DNA from: a virus
Lineage: Duplodnaviria > Heunggongvirae > Uroviricota > Caudoviricetes
Reading direction: 5' to 3' (one strand)
DNA length: 64,000 nucleotides
Virus record (IMG/VR): IMGVR_UViG_3300022660_000042
The position numbers and the translations under genes were made by a program. Below the pieces are notes generated by a model. That model was not told the origin of the DNA. It saw only the letters and a list, made by a program, of their open reading frames with translations, and ran no database searches. The stretch's first letter is position 1. The number at the start of each line of letters is the position of its first letter. Below, piece by piece: positions 1,073 through 38,804 of this stretch.

Positions 1073-1146
1073 TGGAAATAAGAGTTGGACTCGAACCAAC
1101 GATCTTTGCATTGCTGCAACGCTCTAACCAACTGAGCTATCTCATT
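1073..1146 (-). tRNA. Atypical tRNA (Cys-like GCA, T73, encoded CCA) with a 4-6 nt anticodon loop
   Basis: Good acceptor, D and T arms; anticodon arm TTGCA-GCAA-TGCAA. Confidence 0.6.
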
Positions 1147-5884: not shown

Positions 5885-5957
5885 AAGCGCATACGGGATT
5901 CGAACCCGTGACCAGCGGCCTTCACACCGCCTGTTCTACCGCCGAACAAAATGCGTT
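5885..5957 (-). tRNA. Degenerate tRNA (His GTG or Phe GAA ambiguous)
   Basis: Good T and D arms; anticodon arm GCGG-TGTGAAGG-CCGC is irregular. Confidence 0.5.
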
Positions 5958-6734: not shown

Positions 6735-6846
6735 TGGGGAAGGCAGGATTCGAACCTACGACACACGCCTTGGAATGGAAATAGGAACGTTATATGCATT
6801 TCTACGAAACGTAAATACCGTTGCTCTACCACTGAGCTACTTCCCC
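6735..6846 (-). tRNA. tRNA-like gene with a 40-nt structured insertion; spliced form would read ACGCC-ATTCCAA-GGCGT (TCC)
   Basis: Perfect acceptor, D and T arms; the insert contains the repeated module. Confidence 0.7.
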
Positions 6847-6976: not shown

Positions 6977-7091
6977 CCGGCGAGACTGGATTCGAACCAA
7001 TAACCCAAAGTACCCTTTAGATAGGAAGCATTGGTGCTGAAAGCGAATACTAAATCTTAAACTTTTGCTCTACCGATTGAGCTACTCGCCG
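6977..7091 (-). tRNA. tRNA-like gene with a 49-nt anticodon loop containing the module; anticodon unresolved
   Basis: CGGCGAG/CTCGCCG acceptor, AAAGT/ACTTT anticodon stem. Confidence 0.7.
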
Positions 7092-14930: not shown

Positions 14931-15043
14931 TCGGAGAGGCACGGCTCGAACGTGCGACCTGCGGGTTATAAGCCATTAATAGGAACAACCTGTGCCATGA
15001 GCGGGTAGTAAAGTACGCTGCTCTACCACTGAGCTACTCTCCA
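14931..15043 (-). tRNA. tRNA with a 41-nt structured insertion; spliced form GCGGG-CTTATAA-CCCGC = tRNA-Ile(TAT)
   Basis: Canonical acceptor, D and T arms; insert lies between nt 29 and 30. Confidence 0.75.
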
Positions 15044-15414: not shown

Positions 15415-15490
15415 TAGCGGGAGTTGGATTCGAACCAACGACCTTTGGATTATGAGCCCAACGAGCTAAACCGGACTGCTCTATCCCGCG
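15415..15490 (-). tRNA. tRNA-fMet(CAT)
   Basis: CGCGGGA acceptor, C1 unpaired, loop CT-CAT-AA. Confidence 0.85.
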
Positions 15491-15648
15491 TCAAAACTAA
15501 AAATATGGTAAGTGGCCGACACTGTTCAAGACACGCATTCAATTCCTCGTGCACTAGGCAGAACTCTGGAATTTACTTAATGTCAGCCTTAAGGCACACT
15601 TACCGTACCTACAGTCTTTTCTTTTAAGTAGAAAGAAAATATATGTAA

Positions 15649-15768
15649 AAATAAACTCAGTTGCTTTAAAGTAGAAGAACATGAAATAACTCGGCTGCTT
15701 TGAAGTAGAAGAGCTTTGAAATAACTCAGTTCTTTGAAGTAGAAGAACCTGAAATAACTCAGTTTTTT
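15649..15768. repeat. Tandem repeat, 33-35 bp unit, about 3.5 copies
   Basis: AAATAACTCAGTT(G)CTTTGAAGTAGAAGA repeated head to tail. Confidence 0.85.
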
Positions 15769-15789
15769 ATGGAAACTTTGAAAAACCGT

Positions 15790-16112
15790 TTTCAAACACA
15801 CTGCCGGAATCCCGATTCTCCACCGGCCATGACGTCTATCAACTGCACATTCTATCGGTCGACTTCTTATAGGGTACAAACTCCGTCATCTAGCATTTTA
15901 TTGATCGTCTAGCTATATCAAACTCACAAAATACTCTTCATGCCACGCTGCTACATGAATTCAGCGCTCACTAAACGTAGTATACATCGATTTCTCTATA
16001 CAAGAGGTTTAGCTCAACGCGTTGTCAGGCCAGGGCACTTACGCATTCCCGAGTGTTATCCCAGCTCTTCAGTCTTAATGATGGTGCGTCCGTCAAAAAG
16101 CACACGCGCTTA
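15790..16112 (-). ncRNA. Candidate large ncRNA
   Basis: GC-richer, no credible ORF, own TATATAAT promoter at about 16117-16130. Confidence 0.45.
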
Positions 16113-16139
16113 AGTATATTATATATAAAAAATTTCGTA

Positions 16140-16460
16140 TGCTTACAGGCGTCCTAATTGCAAGGACCGATTAAGGAGCACAACAGGTGGTTAACCCAGA
16201 GTTTCTCTCCGCTCACTCTTATTTCAAGTGGCCTCACGTGGCATATTTTAGTAGAGCCAATACTACACCTCTGCGACCATCATTCTGGTATTCATCTAGT
16301 TCGCAGAGACAGATTCCTCATCCCAGAGTTTTCCCCATCTGGGTTAGCCCGTTAGCATGAAATCAAGAATGATGCAACACGGGTTCTACTCACATACGAA
16401 ATTCATCTCTCTCCAAAAATTTCAATCTTCCGAGACACTCGGTGGTAGTCTCAATCATTT
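16140..16460 (-). ncRNA. Candidate large ncRNA
   Basis: Several hairpins (CCCAGA/TCTGGG, CTCTGCGA/TCGCAGAG, AACCCG/CGGGCT); promoter at about 16471-16499. Confidence 0.45.
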
Positions 16461-16532
16461 ACGTTATATAATATAGTAAATGTTTTTGCGTTTGTCAACC
16501 CCTTTTTATAAAAAATTTTTATTTATCCGGGC

Positions 16533-16710
16533 TTATTTTTCAATATCAATAATTTGTTGTGCAGCAATTTCAGGTTCTATACCAGCATTATAGCAAGAAT
16601 CAATTTCTTTTTCATAACTTTCTGCATAAACATCATAATCAATCGATGTGCAATAGCCAAATCCTATACAGATTAAACCTTTAACTTTTTCAAAGTATAC
16701 ATCTCTATCC
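16533..16710 (-). CDS. hypothetical protein
   Basis: Likely start MDRDVYF within the track ORF. Confidence 0.5.
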
Positions 16711-17361: not shown

Positions 17362-17429
17362 ATTGTTATTCCTTTTTGTTTATATGCATAATATAGAAAA
17401 AGGGCTGACTTTCGTCAACCCTTTTTATC

Positions 17430-17505
17430 TCTCCCCTCCTGGATTCGAACCAGGGTTATTTCTGCTTGTAGGGCAGACGCCATTAACCTGCTAGGCGAAG
17501 GAGAG
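17430..17505 (-). tRNA. tRNA-Val(TAC)
   Basis: Cloverleaf, loop CC-TAC-AA. Confidence 0.8.
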
Positions 17506-17509
17506 TTAA

Positions 17510-17568
17510 GGCGGGCAGTAGTTTTGCGATAATCCTAATTCATCTGTTAAATAGGAACTGCCGTTGCC
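17510..17568 (-). ncRNA. Structured module copy just 5' of tRNA-Val
   Basis: GGC-AAC-GGCAGT-TCCTAT...ACTGCC-C-GCC. Confidence 0.7.
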
Positions 17569-17781
17569 TAAAATCTTTTTGACTATATCTTCATAGTCTC
17601 TTAATTGGCAGCCACTCTCGGACATTCAGGTGACCCATCAAGATCTTCAATTATCAGTCCTGATTTCTTACGCTTAGAGTAAGAACTCTACTATTTGGTG
17701 CCTTCCGACATATAGCGTAAATCAACATAACGTATATAGCTATATGAAACTCGTTTCCTAGCGATCTTGCTAAACTTTTAG

Positions 17782-17854
17782 TAGCGGGGGTCGGACTCGA
17801 ACCGACGACTTCAAGGTTATGAGCCTTGCTTGCTAGCCACTGCATCACCCCGCG
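17782..17854 (-). tRNA. tRNA-Met(CAT), fMet-like acceptor
   Basis: CGCGGGG acceptor, loop CT-CAT-AA. Confidence 0.85.
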
Positions 17855-17997
17855 TCAATAAAACTCGAATGTACTGTTACTGGAGGTCTCTGATTATACC
17901 AGCTCTTCCCGCAGCTGACATCCCGTTGCTGCACCCGGCTTAGCATTATAAAGAGTCTGCAGCTTCTAAATAACGCCTAACAGTATATTATTTATAG

Positions 17998-18070
17998 CGC
18001 TGGAAGAGAGAATCGAACTCCCAACTGCCTGATTACAAATCAGGTCTTCTACCTATTGAAGTATTCCAGC
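17998..18070 (-). tRNA. tRNA-Thr(TGT)
   Basis: Cloverleaf. Confidence 0.9.
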
Positions 18071-18374
18071 AAAAGGTGTAATTGTGCTTGTCAAGCTTGG
18101 TTCGATCTAGTTATCTGCAAGTAATCCCAATCGGGTGCTTTACATTAACCTGCAACCATCATGTCCCTTCGCTCCAATTACAAGAGCGTTACGTTATTAA
18201 AGCTTACGCCACGGGTAACGAACCCCCTGCACTCATATTTATGGATTGCTCCACGCGTTGTGTTGGAACCCACGCTTCCGTTTTGACACCAGTGGAATAT
18301 TCCTGGGGTTTTACTTTCGGTTAAAGCAAGTAAGTAACTTTGAGGATCACAATGCAATCGACCCACAGGTTGTA

Positions 18375-18450
18375 TCGGCGTACCTGGATTCGAACCAGGG
18401 AAACCTCTTGATCCCAAATCAAGCGCTCTACCAGACTGAGCTACACACCG
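18375..18450 (-). tRNA. tRNA-Pro(TGG)
   Basis: C1-G72, A73. Confidence 0.9.
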
Positions 18451-18502
18451 CAAGTTTTTAAGGTGGTTCCACCACCAGCTGACTACAGCTATAACGTTTT
18501 AG

Positions 18503-18575
18503 CTGTCCTTCCTGGACTCAAACCAGGGACCAAGTGATTAACAGTCACCGACTCTACCTACTGAGCTAAAGGACA
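18503..18575 (-). tRNA. tRNA-Asn(GTT)
   Basis: Cloverleaf, G73. Confidence 0.9.
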
Positions 18576-18657
18576 ATGTTTTAATCATTCATTTACGTCG
18601 TATAATATAGTAAATTATGCTCCGTTTGTAAACCCCTTTAATTAAAAAAATTTTTAA

Positions 18658-19383
18658 TCAACTGAGTTTTTCTTTAATACTTTCCCAAGTTAAATTGTTT
18701 TTATCCAATATGATTATTCGTATTCCATTCTGTTGTTGTACAATCGCAATCTTTTCAACATCAGTAATACCAAATTTTTTAGTTTTATTATTTATTAAAT
18801 AATCATTTTTTGGATCTAGATATACATCATATTCAGGAAGGTAAAAATCAGGATAATAACGATGTTTTATACCTTTAGTATCTTCCCAAATAAAATATGT
18901 AGGTCTTTCCCATTTTACTTGGTTTTCATCAAGCGTTTTTGCTACCTCAAATTCATATGTAGAATCAAGACTTGTTCCTTTATATTCTATAGTTTTTGAA
19001 GTATGCCAACCACCTAAATGACGTTCAAATGCAATTTCTCTCAGTTTTTGTTTATGCTCTTCAGATTGCGGATGACTAAAAATTCGTTTTCCTTCATCAG
19101 TTCCTTTATAACGCTCTGAAAATGTTTCACCTTGTTTCCTTACGCGTTCATCACTATCTTTAGTTAATCCTTTATTCCAAGCATAACTACCCGGAGCTAA
19201 TTTTCTTTTACCATTTTCATCTATAATATATTTTTGACTAGTTTTAATAGTATTTAAATCACATTCCTTTTTATGTTCATTTAAAAGACGTCTAGTCCTA
19301 AATATATTTTGACAAAATGGGCAAATCCAATTATTATATGCATTTGCTTGTTCTCTAACAACTTTATATCTACAATTTTTCAT
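18658..19383 (-). CDS. Putative homing endonuclease (Zn finger + NUMOD-like + PD-(D/E)xK domain)
   Basis: CPFC..H, WNKGLTK, DSTYEFEVAKTLD..RYYPDFYLPEYDVYLDPK; TATAAATA at 19388-19395. Confidence 0.75.
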   Translation of the reverse strand: MKNCRYKVVREQANAYNNWICPFCQNIFRTRRLLNEHKKECDLNTIKTSQKYIIDENGKRKLAPGSYAWNKGLTKDSDERVRKQGETFSERYKGTDEGKRIFSHPQSEEHKQKLREIAFERHLGGWHTSKTIEYKGTSLDSTYEFEVAKTLDENQVKWERPTYFIWEDTKGIKHRYYPDFYLPEYDVYLDPKNDYLINNKTKKFGITDVEKIAIVQQQNGIRIIILDKNNLTWESIKEKLS

Positions 19384-19425: not shown

Positions 19426-19496
19426 CGCTTCCACCTGGACTCGAACCAAGAAATCCGGACTACTAAACCGGCATTTTACCATTGAATTATAGAAGC
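19426..19496 (-). tRNA. tRNA-Thr(AGT)
   Basis: Loop TT-AGT-AG; A34. Confidence 0.75.
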
Positions 19497-19577: not shown

Positions 19578-19660
19578 TCAGGGTAGCAGGATTCGAACCT
19601 GCGATGTCACGAGGACGCTAGCTCCCGAAGCTAGTGGCAAACCAACCTGCCGCTACCCTG
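19578..19660 (-). tRNA. tRNA-Pro(CGG) with a long variable arm
   Basis: C1-G72, A73; variable region CGTCCTCGTGACATC. Confidence 0.8.
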
Positions 19661-19674
19661 TTTTAATTTGTTCG

Positions 19675-19747
19675 TCAGAGTGGCTGGGCTCGAACCAGCG
19701 ACCCCTCGCATCCTAGGCGAGCTCTCTACCAACTGAGTTACACTCTG
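19675..19747 (-). tRNA. tRNA-Pro(AGG)
   Basis: C1-G72, A73, loop CT-AGG-AT. Confidence 0.85.
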
Positions 19748-20518
19748 TTATTCAAACACATTTACCAAATTTTTATTTGGTAAAAAATGCTTACGTTTTT
19801 GTTCATCATGTTTACTATAGATTGGAATATATTTTTTAAACTTATTATGTAAAGCAATTTTAGATATTCCAAGTTCAATAGCCATATCTTCTAGTTTGTT
19901 ATAATTACCAGAATGATATTTATTCCATAACTTTTCAGCCAATATTTTTCCATTATCATGAAGTAATTTTATCCAAGCAGCTTTATTTATTGTTATACTA
20001 TACTTACCAGATTTTTTTACTTTAATAATACTAGTTTCTCCATGAAAAAGATTTCGACCTTCAATCCAAAATGGTTCTAGTGGTTTTTCTTTAAACTTTT
20101 TAGATTCTCCAGTATTACGATTTGTATACCATTTAGTTCCAAATTGTGAATTTCTTTTTCCTGATTGGCTTATACTTGTTAATTTACTTATTGCCGTAGA
20201 AAATTCAATTCTTAATTTTTCATAAACACGCGAATTAATATATCGTTTATGATTTTCATTAATACCTTGCATTCTCCATAATGCACATAACATTTTATTT
20301 CTTTCAATAGTTCCTTTCTCATACATTTTAACAAGTAACCAATGACAGATAAAATGTTCTCTAGCAGTTAACTTAACAAGATTTTCTTTTTCGTTAGTTC
20401 CTCCTAATGATTTAGGTTGAATATGATGTTTTTCAAAATAACCTAAACTTCGCTTCCCATTTTCATTCTCCGTTTTTGCTTTTTCAATTATTTTATAATA
20501 TATGTTTTTGTAATTCAT
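19748..20518 (-). CDS. HNH homing endonuclease
   Basis: EKHHIQPKSLGG..NLVKLTAREHFICHWLL; NUMOD-like SQFGTKW. Confidence 0.9.
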   Translation of the reverse strand: MNYKNIYYKIIEKAKTENENGKRSLGYFEKHHIQPKSLGGTNEKENLVKLTAREHFICHWLLVKMYEKGTIERNKMLCALWRMQGINENHKRYINSRVYEKLRIEFSTAISKLTSISQSGKRNSQFGTKWYTNRNTGESKKFKEKPLEPFWIEGRNLFHGETSIIKVKKSGKYSITINKAAWIKLLHDNGKILAEKLWNKYHSGNYNKLEDMAIELGISKIALHNKFKKYIPIYSKHDEQKRKHFLPNKNLVNVFE

Positions 20519-20573
20519 ATATTATATATAATTTTTCATTTCCCGAACTTGCAGAATACAAGTTAACAGTTAA

Positions 20574-20657
20574 CTGATAGGGTTGGATTCGAACCAACGG
20601 CGGGCTTTCGCCAACGGCTTAACAGGCCGCCCCCTGCTACCACTCGGGTACCTACCA
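20574..20657 (-). tRNA. tRNA-Asn(GTT) with a Tyr-like body and long variable arm
   Basis: CCCGAGTGG D arm, loop CT-GTT-AA, variable TGGCGAAAGCCCGCC, G73. Confidence 0.8.
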
Positions 20658-20666
20658 ATAATTTAG

Positions 20667-20746
20667 CTGACTACAACGGACTCGAACCAATATCTCTTCT
20701 CTATGCATCGAGAAGCGCTCTGACCAAAAAATTGAGCTAGTAGCCA
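20667..20746 (-). tRNA. Atypical tRNA-like gene with a 10-nt anticodon loop
   Basis: CTTCT-CGATGCATAG-AGAAG; weak T stem. Confidence 0.5.
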
Positions 20747-20786
20747 AAAATAAAAAATCCTGTAAGTTTTTATATCTTACAGGATT
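20746..20786 (-). terminator. Attenuator terminator 4
   Basis: AATCCTGTAAG-loop-CTTACAGGATT + T-tract. Confidence 0.9.
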
Positions 20787-20821
20787 CGTTTAAATTCTCG
20801 TTTTATTCGATGAACCAAAAA

Positions 20822-20884
20822 CTAATCCTGTAGTACCTCAGGGTTATTCGGATTGACGGTATTTGTGTTCATCGTGAAAGTCAT
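20822..20884 (-). CDS. Putative attenuator leader peptide MTFTMNTNTVNPNNPEVLQD (not in ORF track)
   Basis: 5 Asn, 4 Thr, 2 Pro, 2 Val, 2 Met; CTACAGGATT at 20824-20833 is complementary to the terminator 5' arm. Confidence 0.88.
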   Translation of the reverse strand: MTFTMNTNTVNPNNPEVLQD

Positions 20885-21004
20885 TTTGTTTTCTCTCTTT
20901 TAATATTATATATAAAAATTTTTTTGTTGTTTTTGCTTTTTGTTTTAACGTTGTTAAATATAGTAAAGTTTTTTCCTTTTGTAAACCCCTAAAAAGATTT
21001 TTTT

Positions 21005-21562
21005 TTAAAGGTCAGGTTGTCTTTCTGCTTCTTCTGCCATTTTCTCAAGTTTGTTATTCAGCAGGCCGAATACAAGACCCAATACGCCGCCGATAAAATG
21101 TGCACCATGGCCGATACCATCGTTGGCATTGATATTGGAAAGTTCAGGAATGAGCTTCAAGAGAATAAGCACGATACAAGTAAACGAGATTCCAGTATTT
21201 TCCTTACAGAAACAGTGAAGCAGGATAAACATAAAACAAATATCCGACATACCGATTCCTGCAACGTTACGTAACGAACCAACGTAACTTGTTGCCAGGG
21301 TGGTCAAGATAATCATAATTACAGTTCTGATAATTCCGTAACGACGTTCGATTACCGGACCAAGCAAGGCGATAATGAAAATATTTGACATCCAATGACT
21401 GGAAATATCAGCATGGACGAGGGTTGTAGTAATCCAAGTCCAGCTAAAATTTGAGGTCATTGTACATGCAGACTTCAATGCCGGAACAGCCGTAATGATA
21501 AAGCTACTGATAATGAGGACTGCAGTGATAATTTCATTCTTGAAGAAGTTACTAATTTTCAT
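21005..21562 (-). CDS. Rhomboid-family intramembrane protease
   Basis: LVHADISSHWMSN, GIGMS, GHGAHFIGG; multiple TM segments. Confidence 0.8.
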   Translation of the reverse strand: MKISNFFKNEIITAVLIISSFIITAVPALKSACTMTSNFSWTWITTTLVHADISSHWMSNIFIIALLGPVIERRYGIIRTVIMIILTTLATSYVGSLRNVAGIGMSDICFMFILLHCFCKENTGISFTCIVLILLKLIPELSNINANDGIGHGAHFIGGVLGLVFGLLNNKLEKMAEEAERQPDL

Positions 21563-21614
21563 GACCTATAATATAGTAAAATAGGCCCAATTAGTAAATA
21601 CTTTTTATTTAGTC

Positions 21615-22364
21615 TTACTTCCAAAAACAGTAAAGACACTGATGTTTACATCTGGCCGGCTTTACATTAAGAATCTGTTTCTTGGCCAGACACATACAAT
21701 CACCTCGTTGCTTATTTTCTGGTTGACCATATTCTGAAATATCTACGCCAAGTATAGTCAGGTCAGCATAACTTGCGCAACCGATTTGTGTAACCAGGTT
21801 TGTACTGAACTTCTGTTCGGCACAGGATTCAAAAACAAATATGTCTTTGAAATTAGAAAGAGTATCTTCCACTTTCTGGAAATATTCATTAGACGCAGTG
21901 AACGTATTCCAAGGAACTGTAATAGTAGAATTCTTAGAAATACGTTCCTTTACATGGTTATACATATCAATCATGGAAATACGGCAACGGACCTTTTTCT
22001 TTATACTGACTAGATATGATTTCCACAGATTCAATACATTTACAGTATTATTTAAGATGTCGTCATTGAACGGCATGATAGGATCTACTCTGAGAACATA
22101 ATGAGAAATCGGAAAACCGCGTTCGATTAATTTCTTAAACTGTTCAAATTCATGTTCAGTAGATTTAACGTTTGGTTCAAGAACAGAATTTCCTTGTCCT
22201 GTAACAGTATGATGAAAAATTACCCTATCTTGGACGATGAGTAACTTTTCAATCATTTCATCGGAAAGTTCTTTAGAAATAATGATATTTGCTTCTAAGA
22301 GTTTTACTTCCCAATCAGAAACAAAACATGGGTCAAACGTTTCTGTTATTCCGATTTGTTTCAT
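21615..22364 (-). CDS. DUF1848-like protein
   Basis: VLRVDPI, C-terminal RGDCMC..CKHQCLYCFW; start set to MKQIGITE. Confidence 0.6.
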   Translation of the reverse strand: MKQIGITETFDPCFVSDWEVKLLEANIIISKELSDEMIEKLLIVQDRVIFHHTVTGQGNSVLEPNVKSTEHEFEQFKKLIERGFPISHYVLRVDPIMPFNDDILNNTVNVLNLWKSYLVSIKKKVRCRISMIDMYNHVKERISKNSTITVPWNTFTASNEYFQKVEDTLSNFKDIFVFESCAEQKFSTNLVTQIGCASYADLTILGVDISEYGQPENKQRGDCMCLAKKQILNVKPARCKHQCLYCFWK

Positions 22365-22365
22365 T

Positions 22366-22809
22366 TTAATCCTTATAAAGCTGGTATTTCTTACTAAGTT
22401 TATGGCTGATTTCATCCGACAACGGTTTAAACCAGATTCCTACGCGACAACGACCAACACCGTTTTCATCAGTAAATTCCGGAGTAAGTTCAGTCTTACA
22501 TACATCGTCGATAAAACCATAATCAGTACCTTCAACAAGACCGAGTTCTTTAGCAATATCAACAACCTTCATCAAATGATTAAGGTTCTTTGCTTCACAA
22601 ATAGTCTTCGTGAAGATACCGTTAATATAATCTGACATTATATCATTGTCGATAACTATCGATACCAAAGTACCGGGACCGTCATTAAATGGTCTGTTTC
22701 CAGATTTGATAAGATTCATCCAGTAACATTCTGCACAATGCCCTATCATGGCGGCCAGTTTACCACCTGTAAGATGTAAATCTTTTCGAATAATAAATAA
22801 ACGTCTCAT
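22366..22809 (-). CDS. Peptidyl-tRNA hydrolase type 2 (Pth2)
   Basis: IIRKDLHLTGGKLAAMIGHCA, IDDVCKTE. Confidence 0.8.
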   Translation of the reverse strand: MRRLFIIRKDLHLTGGKLAAMIGHCAECYWMNLIKSGNRPFNDGPGTLVSIVIDNDIMSDYINGIFTKTICEAKNLNHLMKVVDIAKELGLVEGTDYGFIDDVCKTELTPEFTDENGVGRCRVGIWFKPLSDEISHKLSKKYQLYKD

Positions 22810-28142: not shown

Positions 28143-28231
28143 TGGACCCGACGAGATTCGAACTCGCGACCCATCGCTTAAAAGGCGATTGCTCTACGAT
28201 GTTGCCATCTAACCAACTGAGCTACAGATCC
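28143..28231 (-). tRNA. tRNA-Lys(TTT) with an extra hairpin in the D loop
   Basis: D loop contains GATG-GCAA-CATC. Confidence 0.8.
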
Positions 28232-35154: not shown

Positions 35155-35455
35155 GTTGAACGGAGAGATCTAGCCTAGCAGGAATCACTAGACTAAACAC
35201 AGCTACTCTACTTTTGGCATAAAGTTTCGCGTGTCAATCTGGGGGACTTATGAACACTCTTACTGGTCGGTCATCCTGTACTCAGGCTACATAGTGTTCA
35301 GCCATGGCGGCAAGTGTATAGTTTGCTAAGCTATACTCGATAATCGAATCGCCTTTAACGTATACTTCCGATTTCAAAGTATACAGCGGCTTAGCCTCTA
35401 CCGATAATACCATTGGATTGGATTTCGTTCCGAGGACTAAGGCTCGAATGTCAGG
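35155..35455 (-). ncRNA. Candidate large structured ncRNA
   Basis: About 300 nt without ORF, TATATT at its 5' end, many hairpins. Confidence 0.5.
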
Positions 35456-38425: not shown

Positions 38426-38450
38426 AGTATGTTTCCTTTTTAAATTTTAA

Positions 38451-38804
38451 TGGACCCGTTGGGAGTCGAACCCAAGTCTTGAATAACTTCAATATCCGTT
38501 CCTACAAGCTTTCCCTTCGAATTTACTTATTTGTCATACCTATGCCCTGAAGGTCGGCGTCGGTATAAACTAGCCTGTGATTTTCGGAAATAATAGACAG
38601 ACTTAACTATTTCCTAGCCCATTTGCGACTGGACTCTACACCCAACGGGCGAACGATATAGGTCCAGGGTTGCTATTGATTAAGCAGCCATTGCGTATGT
38701 ATTAGCAATTATTGTTTTCAGACTTTTTAACGTGTGTTTTCCCTCGTCTGAGACCACGGCTTGCAACTAATATATTCATCACCCAATCGAAACCAGGCGA
38801 GCCC
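38451..38804 (-). ncRNA. ssrA: tmRNA, tag (A)ANTYAMAA* at 38680-38706
   Basis: 5' GGGCTCGCCTGGTTTCGA, 3' GGGTTCGACTCCCAACGGGTCCA, G3:U70, resume context ATAATT-GCT, 354 nt. Confidence 0.92.

What the first reader, a model, noticed from the sequence alone, without database searches (positions are those of the whole stretch)
20746..20884. Attenuator 4: codon-level match, including rare Pro(AGG) and Pro(CGG)
Seen: 15 of 20 residues are N/T/P/V/M. All four Thr codons are used once each (ACT, ACG, ACA, ACC), and the two Pro codons are CCG and CCT, matching the Pro(CGG) and Pro(AGG) genes directly downstream. CTACAGGATT pairs with AATCCTGTA(A)G. Caveat: an internal promoter at about 18604 may also drive the distal Asn/Pro/Thr/Met/Val genes.
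Basis: partly seen in the sequence, partly recalled or inferred. Interest (0 to 1): 0.88.

Follow-up and report, generated by a model that had tools for sequence, protein, structure and literature searches.

The report
Leader-peptide attenuator gating phage tRNA genes
A 411-kb rumen phage places a 20-codon test gene rich in Asn, Thr and Pro codons, wired to a switchable transcription stop, in front of its Asn/Pro/Thr/Met/Val tRNA genes, so it probably makes these tRNAs only when those codons are read slowly; I found no published account of this control for tRNA genes.

Summary
On the minus strand, 20884-20746 holds a 20-codon ORF (15 of 20 residues N/T/P/V/M) and then an intrinsic terminator. 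The terminator's T-run abuts the first downstream tRNA-type gene. The RNA can form the three classical attenuator helices (1:2, 2:3, 3:4), and the stop codon lies inside the antiterminator arm.

It is one of six such units in the 411-kb phage genome. The true leader-to-array pairing ranks 1st of 720 permutations for amino-acid match and also 1st of 720 for antiterminator complementarity. Relatives carry the same unit. When tRNA genes move between arrays, the leaders change accordingly (Cys, Gln, Met, Val).

The attenuator reading is therefore well supported. The codon-level claims made for this particular unit are not:
- The array's tRNAs cover every Thr, Pro and Asn codon.
- CCG and CCT are the phage's commonest Pro codons.
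- Four different Thr codons in four draws has P of about 0.09.
- Pro(AGG) is a point mutant of the relatives' Pro(CGG), yet those relatives have the identical leader.

Codon-level matching does appear in sister units (Lys, Ser, Arg) and in a split-off homologue.

This scan has noted the same system in many other phage genomes. I found no published account. There is no experimental evidence yet.

The parts
20957..20985 (-). Sigma-70-type promoter: TTTACA, 17 nt, TATATT, with the phage's recurrent GGGGTTTACAA context.
   Evidence: The same promoter type precedes the sister units.
20905..20914 (-). Conserved TATATATAAT motif between the promoter and the ribosome-binding site. It may be a second -10 element; its role is undecided.
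   Evidence: The motif recurs before five leaders in the genome and in relatives.
20893..20900 (-). Purine-rich Shine-Dalgarno-like AAAGAGAG, 8 nt before the ATG.
   Evidence: Read. Sister leaders have AAAGG at the same distance.
20822..20884 (-). Leader ORF of 20 codons plus TAG. The control codons for N/T/P (plus one V) are codons 2-15.
20859..20874 (-). Segment 1 (codons 4-9). It pairs with segment 2 as the anti-antiterminator.
   Evidence: Minimum-energy fold (z = -5.1). Two pairs covary in relatives.
20808..20832 (-). Segment 2. It contains the stop codon. It pairs either with segment 1 (20822-20808) or with the terminator's 5' arm (20832-20819).
20776..20791 (-). Segment 3: the terminator's 5' arm (20787-20776) and the partner of the antiterminator (20791-20778).
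20746..20766 (-). Segment 4: the terminator's 3' arm (20766-20755) and the T-run (20757-20746). It abuts the next gene, leaving no room for a promoter.
   Evidence: The segment is near-invariant in 12 relatives.
20667..20746 (-). First gene after the terminator: a tRNA-like RNA whose anticodon loop is replaced by an extended stem capped by a tetraloop.
   Evidence: Rfam tRNA at 35.4 bits. Relatives show a covarying stem with a UGCA or GGCC loop.
20573..20658 (-). tRNA-Asn(GUU) with a long variable arm.
19748..20518 (-). HNH-type endonuclease ORF inserted in the array.
   Evidence: HNH at 21.3 bits, just under the cut-off of 21.4.
19675..19747 (-). tRNA-Pro(AGG), the orthologue of the relatives' Pro(CGG) with C34 changed to A.
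19578..19660 (-). tRNA-Pro(CGG) with a long variable arm.
19426..19496 (-). tRNA-Thr(AGU).
18604..18632 (-). Internal promoter of the same class, without a leader, 28 nt before the distal tRNA block.
17430..18575 (-). Distal block: Asn(GUU), Pro(UGG), Thr(UGU), Met(CAU), Val(UAC). In relatives this block has an attenuator of its own.
17397..17426 (-). Strong terminator that closes the array.

Best explanation
This is a ribosome-mediated (leader-peptide) transcription attenuator that gates a phage tRNA array.

Proposed mechanism:
1. Transcription starts at the promoter at 20985-20957, and a ribosome translates the 20-codon leader.
2. If Asn, Thr and Pro (and Val) codons are decoded fast, the ribosome reaches the TAG. 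The TAG lies inside segment 2, so the ribosome covers the antiterminator arm. The terminator (segments 3:4) forms, and transcription stops at the T-run just before the first tRNA-type gene.
3. If decoding is slow because the cognate charged tRNAs are scarce, the ribosome stalls on codons 2-13. This breaks helix 1:2 and leaves segment 2 free to pair with the terminator's 5' arm. RNA polymerase then reads through into the tRNA-like gene, Asn, Pro, Pro and Thr, and on into Asn, Pro, Thr, Met and Val.
4. The new tRNAs relieve the stall, giving negative feedback on tRNA supply.

Shown here: the sequence anatomy, the alternative helices, conservation, covariation, and the match between leader and array.

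Inferred: translation of the ORF, stall-dependent read-through, and the physiological signal (tRNA shortage rather than amino-acid shortage).
For: 1. Anatomy. The promoter, SD-like site, ATG, 20 codons, terminator and T-run are all present. The T-run abuts the next gene, so the proximal tRNAs can only be reached by read-through.

2. Three mutually exclusive helices. The minimum-energy fold shows 1:2 plus 3:4 (-37.5 kcal/mol, z = -5.1). Without the 3' arm, the fold shows 2:3. The stop codon lies inside segment 2.

3. Composition. 14 of 19 residues belong to the array's amino-acid set (P = 1e-5). This is the only ORF among 2573 small ORFs to reach that fraction.

4. System level. Six such units exist in the genome.
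- For amino-acid match, the identity pairing of leaders and arrays ranks 1 of 720.
- For duplex energy between each stop-codon region and its own terminator arm, it also ranks 1 of 720.
- Cognate codons sit in the middle of each leader, not at its ends.

5. Conservation. 12 distinct family members came from viral and metagenome contigs. Helix 1:2 has two pairs with compensatory double changes: UA 7 versus CG 5, and UA 8 versus GC 2.

6. Leaders track their arrays in relatives.
- In G001 the Cys and Gln(CUG) genes sit in the Leu/Trp array, and that leader has gained two Cys and two CAG codons.
- G001's Tyr array lacks a Cys tRNA and its leader has no Cys codon. That array holds two Met genes, and the leader has three internal ATG codons against one in G000 and G002.
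- G002's Tyr array holds Gln(CUG), and its leader has a CAG CAG pair.

7. This family specifically.
- In three lineages (G002, L052, L070) the distal block has its own attenuator. Its leader is rich in Val, and in G002 also has an added Met codon. L052's leader uses GTA four times out of five, ACA three times and CCA twice. That matches Val(UAC), Thr(UGU) and Pro(UGG), although GTT is the commonest Val codon.
- The N/T/P-only leaders of those lineages have no Val between the conserved ATG AAC and the conserved end (V3, V4 and V6 have GTT at codon 4).
- G000 has fused the two blocks, and its leader has one core Val codon.
- In G002's unit, masking codons as a stalled ribosome would do switches the minimum-energy fold to an antiterminator.

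8. Sister units match at codon level.
- Lys is AAA with Lys(UUU) but AAG with Lys(CUU) (Fisher P = 0.018).
- Ser is AGY with Ser(GCU) but TCN with Ser(GGA/UGA/CGA) (Fisher P = 0.008).
- Arg is AGR with Arg(UCU) but CGN with Arg(ACG).
Against: - There is no experimental evidence for translation, stalling or regulated termination.
- At equilibrium, the full-length G000 RNA keeps the terminator whichever codons are masked. The switch must therefore be kinetic, as in classical attenuators, and these tools cannot test that.
- The antiterminator and terminator arms are invariant within this family, so helices 2:3 and 3:4 have no covariation support within it.
- The distal Asn/Pro/Thr/Met/Val block has its own leaderless promoter (18632-18604), so the Met and Val match may be partly irrelevant in this genome.
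- GTC (codon 10) is not read by Val(UAC) under standard wobble.
- The first codons, and the ATG at codon 5, are conserved for helix 1:2 whatever the array holds.
- The relatives are few and related. They represent roughly three to six independent lineages.
Confidence: 0.8

Rival explanations
1. The switch senses general translation capacity, not specific tRNAs. The leader and terminator would couple tRNA transcription to whether ribosomes are translating at all (for example after host shut-off or ribosome-targeting defence), and the N/T/P bias would be secondary.
For: The same geometry responds to any slowing of the ribosome. The G000 leader matches at the amino-acid level only, and its codon choice carries no information.
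Against: Six leaders in one genome have six different compositions, each matching its own array (rank 1 of 720). Leaders change when tRNA genes move between arrays. A general sensor would not need this.
Confidence: 0.08
2. This is a translation-independent RNA switch. The triplets in the leader would be read directly by tRNA anticodons or by a protein (T-box-like or TRAP-like antitermination), and the ORF would be incidental.
For: The regulated genes are tRNAs, and T-box RNAs do bind tRNAs. The weak sub-threshold Rfam matches are all to cis-regulatory leaders.
Against: - There is no T-box or other family match at threshold.
- The cognate triplets are all in one frame, set by an ATG with an SD-like site at the right distance.
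- The stop codon keeps its place inside segment 2 in all units.
- Differences between relatives in the conserved 3' codons are at third positions only: GAG/GAA and GTA/GTG/GTT.
Confidence: 0.06
3. This is a chance small ORF next to an ordinary terminator or insulator, with no regulatory link to the tRNAs.
For: AT-rich intergenic DNA holds many small ORFs and hairpins. The terminator and promoter scans are only slightly above the shuffled expectation.
Against: - Composition P = 1e-5, and this is the only ORF among 2573 small ORFs to reach that fraction.
- The unit is conserved in 12 variants.
- Five sister units show the same logic.
- The T-run abuts the tRNA-like gene, so a constitutive terminator would silence the proximal tRNAs.
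Confidence: 0.03

Closest known systems
Classical leader-peptide attenuators of amino-acid biosynthetic operons (E. coli/Salmonella trpL, hisL, thrL, leuL, pheL). The multivalent ones are closest: thr (Thr+Ile) and ilvGMEDA (Ile/Leu/Val). This comparison rests on established knowledge and on PMC3082878 for the pheL model.
   Same: - A short translated ORF enriched in control codons.
- Four RNA segments that form 1:2, 2:3 and 3:4.
- A stop codon placed so that a terminating ribosome masks segment 2.
- An intrinsic terminator before the regulated genes.
- Several amino acids sensed by one leader.
   Different: - The regulated genes are the tRNAs themselves, not enzymes that make the amino acid. 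The loop therefore closes on tRNA supply.
- The element is phage-encoded and occurs in six parallel copies that between them cover nearly all amino acids.
- There is no sequence membership: Thr_leader scores 16.3 bits against a gathering score of 55.
Attenuators of aminoacyl-tRNA synthetase genes (E. coli pheST with its pheM leader) and T-box riboswitches of Firmicutes.
   Same: They regulate components of the translation apparatus in response to the charging state of specific tRNAs.
   Different: pheM controls a synthetase, not tRNA genes. T-boxes bind uncharged tRNA directly without a ribosome, and no T-box match exists here.
The same system noted by this scan in other phage genomes (crAss-like, lake, peat and rumen giant phages) and in a near relative.
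   Same: Promoter, matched mini-ORF, terminator, tRNA array. Those follow-up notes also report finding no publication.
   Different: Those are AI notes on other DNA that I did not check. This unit adds a case where two units have fused, and a test showing that the leader did not follow a Pro(CGG) to Pro(AGG) anticodon mutation.

Membership tests
Ribosome-mediated (leader-peptide) transcription attenuator | A short ORF with a start codon and ribosome-binding site directly downstream of a promoter. | tested here: met
   ATG at 20884, AAAGAGAG 8 nt upstream, and the promoter at 20985-20957.
Ribosome-mediated (leader-peptide) transcription attenuator | The ORF is enriched in codons tied to the function of the regulated genes. 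| tested here: met
   14 of 19 residues, P = 1e-5. The genome-wide leader-by-array matrix ranks 1 of 720.
Ribosome-mediated (leader-peptide) transcription attenuator | An intrinsic terminator lies between the ORF and the regulated genes. | tested here: met
   A 12-bp stem plus a T-run at 20787-20746 that abuts the first gene.
Ribosome-mediated (leader-peptide) transcription attenuator | An antiterminator that excludes the terminator, with its 5' arm placed where a terminating ribosome covers it. | tested here: met
   20832-20824 pairs with 20786-20778, and the stop codon is at 20824-20822. Own-unit complementarity ranks 1 of 720. There is no covariation within the family because the arms are invariant.
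Ribosome-mediated (leader-peptide) transcription attenuator | An anti-antiterminator (1:2) that overlaps the control codons. | tested here: met
   Two pairs show compensatory changes across 12 sequences.
Ribosome-mediated (leader-peptide) transcription attenuator | Read-through rises when the ribosome stalls at the control codons. | not testable with these tools
   This needs reporter, in vitro or Term-seq experiments. Equilibrium folding with masked codons is uninformative for G000. It shows a switch for G002's unit.
Rfam Thr_leader (RF00506) and other curated leader families | A score at or above the family's gathering threshold. | tested here: not met
   Thr_leader scores 16.3 bits against 55, and the trpB motif 28.7 against 59. 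Nothing reaches gathering score in the window.
T-box riboswitch (RF00230) | A match to the T-box model (specifier loop, T-box sequence). | tested here: not met
   No match.

The most novel reading that the evidence does not exclude
Giant phages run a demand-driven tRNA supply circuit. Each tRNA block is transcribed only when a ribosome on a matched test ORF reports that those particular codons are being decoded slowly, for example after host tRNA cleavage or depletion. In at least some units the test codons are tuned to individual anticodons (Lys AAA/AAG, Ser AGY/TCN, Val GTA), so the sensor would work at isoacceptor level. This unit would be one of six sensors that together cover nearly all amino acids.
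Probability: 0.6. Interest if true: 0.88.

Novelty: new variant of a known kind. Interest (0 to 1): 0.8.

Why it matters
Bacterial tRNA genes are generally taken to be controlled at promoters (growth rate, stringent response). Phage tRNAs are usually discussed only as a codon-usage supplement or as replacements for cleaved host tRNAs.

A ribosome-read sensor that gates tRNA transcription by the decoding speed of the very codons those tRNAs read would be a new regulatory logic for tRNA genes. It would explain why phage tRNA genes are grouped by amino acid. It would also give a direct handle on a testable question: when do large phages need their own tRNAs?

The element is small, modular and portable (about 240 nt), so it is easy to test and could serve as a codon-specific translation-speed reporter.

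Tried and rejected
- RNA evidence. Only Logan contigs of rumen and gut RNA libraries were available. Contigs in four studies lie on the leader, and three bridge the terminator (20605-20970, 20681-20902, 20672-20822). Contigs cannot show ends, strand or level, and DNA may be present in these libraries. Contig ends at 20902 coincide with a masked repeat (20903-20948). The uncovered HNH stretches and the joints come from relatives with other array layouts. None of this counts as evidence for or against regulation.
- Equilibrium folding with ribosome-masked codons. The terminator always wins in G000. I rejected this as a test because attenuation is kinetic.
- TAA recoding or a UUA suppressor, considered because the Tyr/Cys/Ser leader has an in-frame TAA. 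TAA is the main stop codon (312 of 445 long open stretches). In-frame TAAs between open stretches are in proportion to that usage. The candidate suppressor at 28214-28143 reads as Lys(UUU) with an insertion. Rejected.
- ARAGORN with introns allowed and a lowered threshold. The output was too noisy. I used it only where Rfam also had a hit.
- My recollection that E. coli tRNA-Phe genes have a Phe-rich leader. The pheV upstream region in MG1655 shows no such ORF. I did not check pheU. Not used.
- Eight literature searches and two papers read in part. I found no account of leader-peptide attenuation of tRNA genes. The library lacks most subscription journals, so absence is not proven.
- A mis-spaced promoter pattern found nothing relevant.

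Full report
**What is there**

The window is the minus strand of G000:C1:92026-156025, a single 411,059-bp virus contig with 38% G+C. All genes discussed here lie on the window's minus strand.

The finding's interval holds the following features, read:
- a promoter, TTTACA-17-TATATT, at 20985-20957;
- a conserved TATATATAAT motif at 20914-20905;
- a purine-rich SD-like site at 20900-20893;
- a 20-codon ORF at 20884-20822, encoding MTFTMNTNTVNPNNPEVLQD;
- a 12-bp hairpin at 20787-20755;
- a T-run at 20757-20746.

The T-run touches the first base of the next gene. The proximal tRNA genes can therefore only be transcribed through this terminator.

ARAGORN missed Pro(CGG), but Rfam aligns it at 19660-19578 with anticodon loop UUCGGGA and a long variable arm.

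**Alternative structures**

The full leader folds into helix 1:2 plus the terminator 3:4. Helix 1:2 joins codons 4-9 (20874-20859) to 20822-20808. The energy is -37.5 kcal/mol with z = -5.1.

Without the terminator's 3' arm, segment 2 (20832-20819) pairs with the terminator's 5' arm (20791-20778). The stop codon (20824-20822) lies inside segment 2. A terminating ribosome therefore hides the antiterminator arm. A ribosome stalled on codons 2-13 opens 1:2 and leaves the arm free. This is the geometry of the classical trp, his and phe attenuators.

Masking codons in the full-length G000 RNA never displaces the terminator at equilibrium. If the switch works, it is kinetic. In the homologous unit of G002, the same masking does flip the minimum-energy fold to an antiterminator.

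**More than chance**

After the start codon, 14 of 19 residues are N, P, T, M or V. These make up 24.8% of the phage proteome, giving a binomial P of 1e-5. For codons 2-15 the count is 13 of 14 (P = 1.5e-7). Of 2573 ATG-started ORFs of 15-40 codons in the genome, only this one reaches that fraction.

**A system of six units**

The genome has six tRNA arrays on this strand. Each is preceded by the same cassette.

| Array content | Leader is rich in |
|---|---|
| Gln/Lys/Arg | Q, K, R |
| this one | N, T, P |
| Glu/Ala/Phe | A, E, F |
| Asp/Arg/Lys/Gly/His | D, K, G, H, R |
| Trp/Leu/Ser | L, S, W |
| Tyr/Cys/Met/Ser | Y, C, S, M |

- In the 6x6 matrix of leader residues against array amino acids, the true pairing is the best of 720 permutations (3.48 against a mean of 1.18).
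- In a 6x6 matrix of duplex energies between each stop-codon region and each terminator 5' arm, the true pairing is again the best of 720 (-80.5 against a mean of -50.0 kcal/mol).
- Cognate codons cluster in the middle of each leader. The last five to nine codons, which form segment 2, are not matched.

**Relatives**

Pattern searches recovered related rumen phage contigs. They include a complete 415,750-bp relative (G001), a 165-kb one (G002), and 25 metagenome loci.

For this unit there are 12 distinct sequences. The terminator and the antiterminator arm are invariant, so they carry no covariation information. Helix 1:2 has two pairs with compensatory double changes: UA 7 / CG 5 with none unpaired, and UA 8 / GC 2 with two unpaired. 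The covariation score exceeded all 500 shuffles and all slid controls.

In the conserved 3' codons, differences between relatives fall at third positions only (GAG/GAA, GTA/GTG/GTT). This fits a translated frame.

**Do leaders follow their arrays?**

At the amino-acid level they do.
- In G001 the Cys and Gln(CUG) genes lie in the Leu/Trp array. That leader has gained two Cys and two CAG codons.
- G001's Tyr array lacks a Cys tRNA and holds two Met genes. Its leader has no Cys codon and has three internal ATG codons, against one in G000 and G002.
- G002's Tyr array ends in Gln(CUG), and its leader has CAG CAG.

Within this family, three lineages (G002, L052, L070) carry two units.
- The first unit has a Val-rich leader before Asn, Pro(UGG), Thr(UGU), Met and Val(UAC). 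G002's version also has an added Met codon.
- The second unit has an N/T/P-only leader before Asn, Asn, Pro, Pro and Thr(AGU).

In G000 the first block lies behind the second. It has only a leaderless promoter, and the single remaining leader carries one Val codon in its core. N/T/P-only leaders in lineages without a Val tRNA in the unit have no Val between the conserved ATG AAC and the conserved end, although three variants have GTT at codon 4.

**The codon-level claim**

For this unit the claim does not hold up as stated.
1. The array holds Thr(AGU)+Thr(UGU), Pro(AGG)+Pro(CGG)+Pro(UGG) and Asn(GUU). Any Thr, Pro or Asn codon is therefore cognate.
2. CCG (39%) and CCT (29%) are the two commonest Pro codons of the phage. 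Drawing four different Thr codons has P = 0.086.
3. In the stretch printed, G000's Pro(AGG) differs from the Pro(CGG) of L081 and L052 at anticodon base 34 and at two or three acceptor-stem bases. L081 and L074 have the identical leader and no Pro(AGG).
4. CCT is invariant in all 12 variants. Relatives use three or fewer different Thr codons.

Codon-level matching is nevertheless real elsewhere.
- Lys is AAA in the unit with Lys(UUU) and AAG in the unit with Lys(CUU) (P = 0.018).
- Ser is AGY with Ser(GCU) and TCN with Ser(GGA/UGA/CGA) (P = 0.008).
- Arg is AGR with Arg(UCU) and CGN with Arg(ACG).
- The split-off Val/Thr/Pro unit of L052 uses GTA four times out of five, ACA three times and CCA twice. 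This matches UAC, UGU and UGG, although GTT is the commonest Val codon.

**Comparison with what is known**

By every structural criterion I could test, the unit is a leader-peptide attenuator. It is not a member of any curated RNA family: Thr_leader scores 16.3 bits against 55, the trpB motif 28.7 against 59, and there is no T-box match.

What differs from known attenuators is the target. The regulated genes are the tRNAs that read the control codons, so the feedback acts on tRNA supply.

Eight full-text searches found no description of this. E. coli pheV has no such leader. This scan has noted the same system in many other phage genomes and in a near relative. Those are unchecked AI notes.

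**Limits**

Nothing here shows translation, stalling or regulated termination directly. RNA-library contigs lie on the leader and bridge the terminator in several studies, but they cannot show ends or exclude DNA. The relatives represent only a handful of independent lineages. In this genome the distal block may be transcribed from its own promoter.

**Verdict**

The attenuator interpretation is well supported (0.8). The Pro(AGG)/Pro(CGG) and four-Thr-codon points are coincidental or uninformative. This is a new variant of a known kind of regulator, of high interest as part of a system that appears widespread among large phages.

Noticed in passing
window 20667-20746 (-); also 1073-1146 (-) and 5885-5957 (-): tRNA-like genes with normal acceptor, D and T arms, but with the anticodon loop replaced by an extended stem capped by a tetraloop (UGCA, GGCC or GCAA). 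The stem covaries in relatives. One of them sits directly after the attenuator 4 terminator, and another sits between a promoter and the Asp/Lys/Gly/His leader. They cannot decode. They may be processing signals or decoys.
   Followed up: partly
genome G000:C1:212299-212394 (outside the window; locus L050): The Tyr/Cys/Met/Ser leader has an in-frame TAA at codon 9, where relatives (L008, G002) have a sense codon. The same TAA is in L002. The genome shows no sign of TAA recoding, so this leader looks truncated, or it uses the overlapping TAATG for re-initiation.
   Followed up: partly
window 19675-19747 (-): tRNA-Pro(AGG) differs from the relatives' tRNA-Pro(CGG) mainly at anticodon base 34 (C to A). 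This looks like a recent anticodon switch inside a phage tRNA array.
   Followed up: yes
window 20573-20658 (-) and 19578-19660 (-): tRNA-Asn(GUU) and tRNA-Pro(CGG) carry long variable arms of about 11 extra nt. This is unusual for these amino acids. Relatives also have 80-89-nt Asn tRNAs.
   Followed up: no
window 6735-6846, 6977-7091, 14931-15043, 28143-28214 (-): Rfam finds tRNAs with 15-45-nt insertions that ARAGORN misses. This is too short for group I or II introns. Two of them follow their own promoter and an inverted repeat (GTTAACGC...GCGTTAAC).
   Followed up: no
window 18658-19383 and 19748-20518 (-): Two endonuclease-like ORFs are inserted between tRNA genes of the array. The second has a borderline HNH match. 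Relatives lack them at these sites, and RNA or DNA contigs join across them.
   Followed up: partly
window 21005-22809 (-): The genes upstream of the unit encode a rhomboid-domain protein, a DUF1848 protein and a PTH2-type peptidyl-tRNA hydrolase. The last is another translation-related function next to the tRNA region.
   Followed up: partly
window 35239-35342 (-) and 38448-38804 (-): A cow-rumen-2 RNA (94.5 bits) and a phage-encoded tmRNA with tag ANTYAMAA.
   Followed up: no
window 20905-20914 (-) and the same motif before other leaders: A TATATATAAT motif lies 20-30 nt before each leader's ATG, downstream of the sigma-70-like promoter. Some relatives have CATAAATAAA there instead. It may be a second, phage-specific -10 element.
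   Followed up: no
window about 15500-16500 (-): About 1 kb between tRNA-Met (15415-15490) and the ORFs at 16533 and beyond has no long ORF on either strand and no Rfam match.
   Followed up: no
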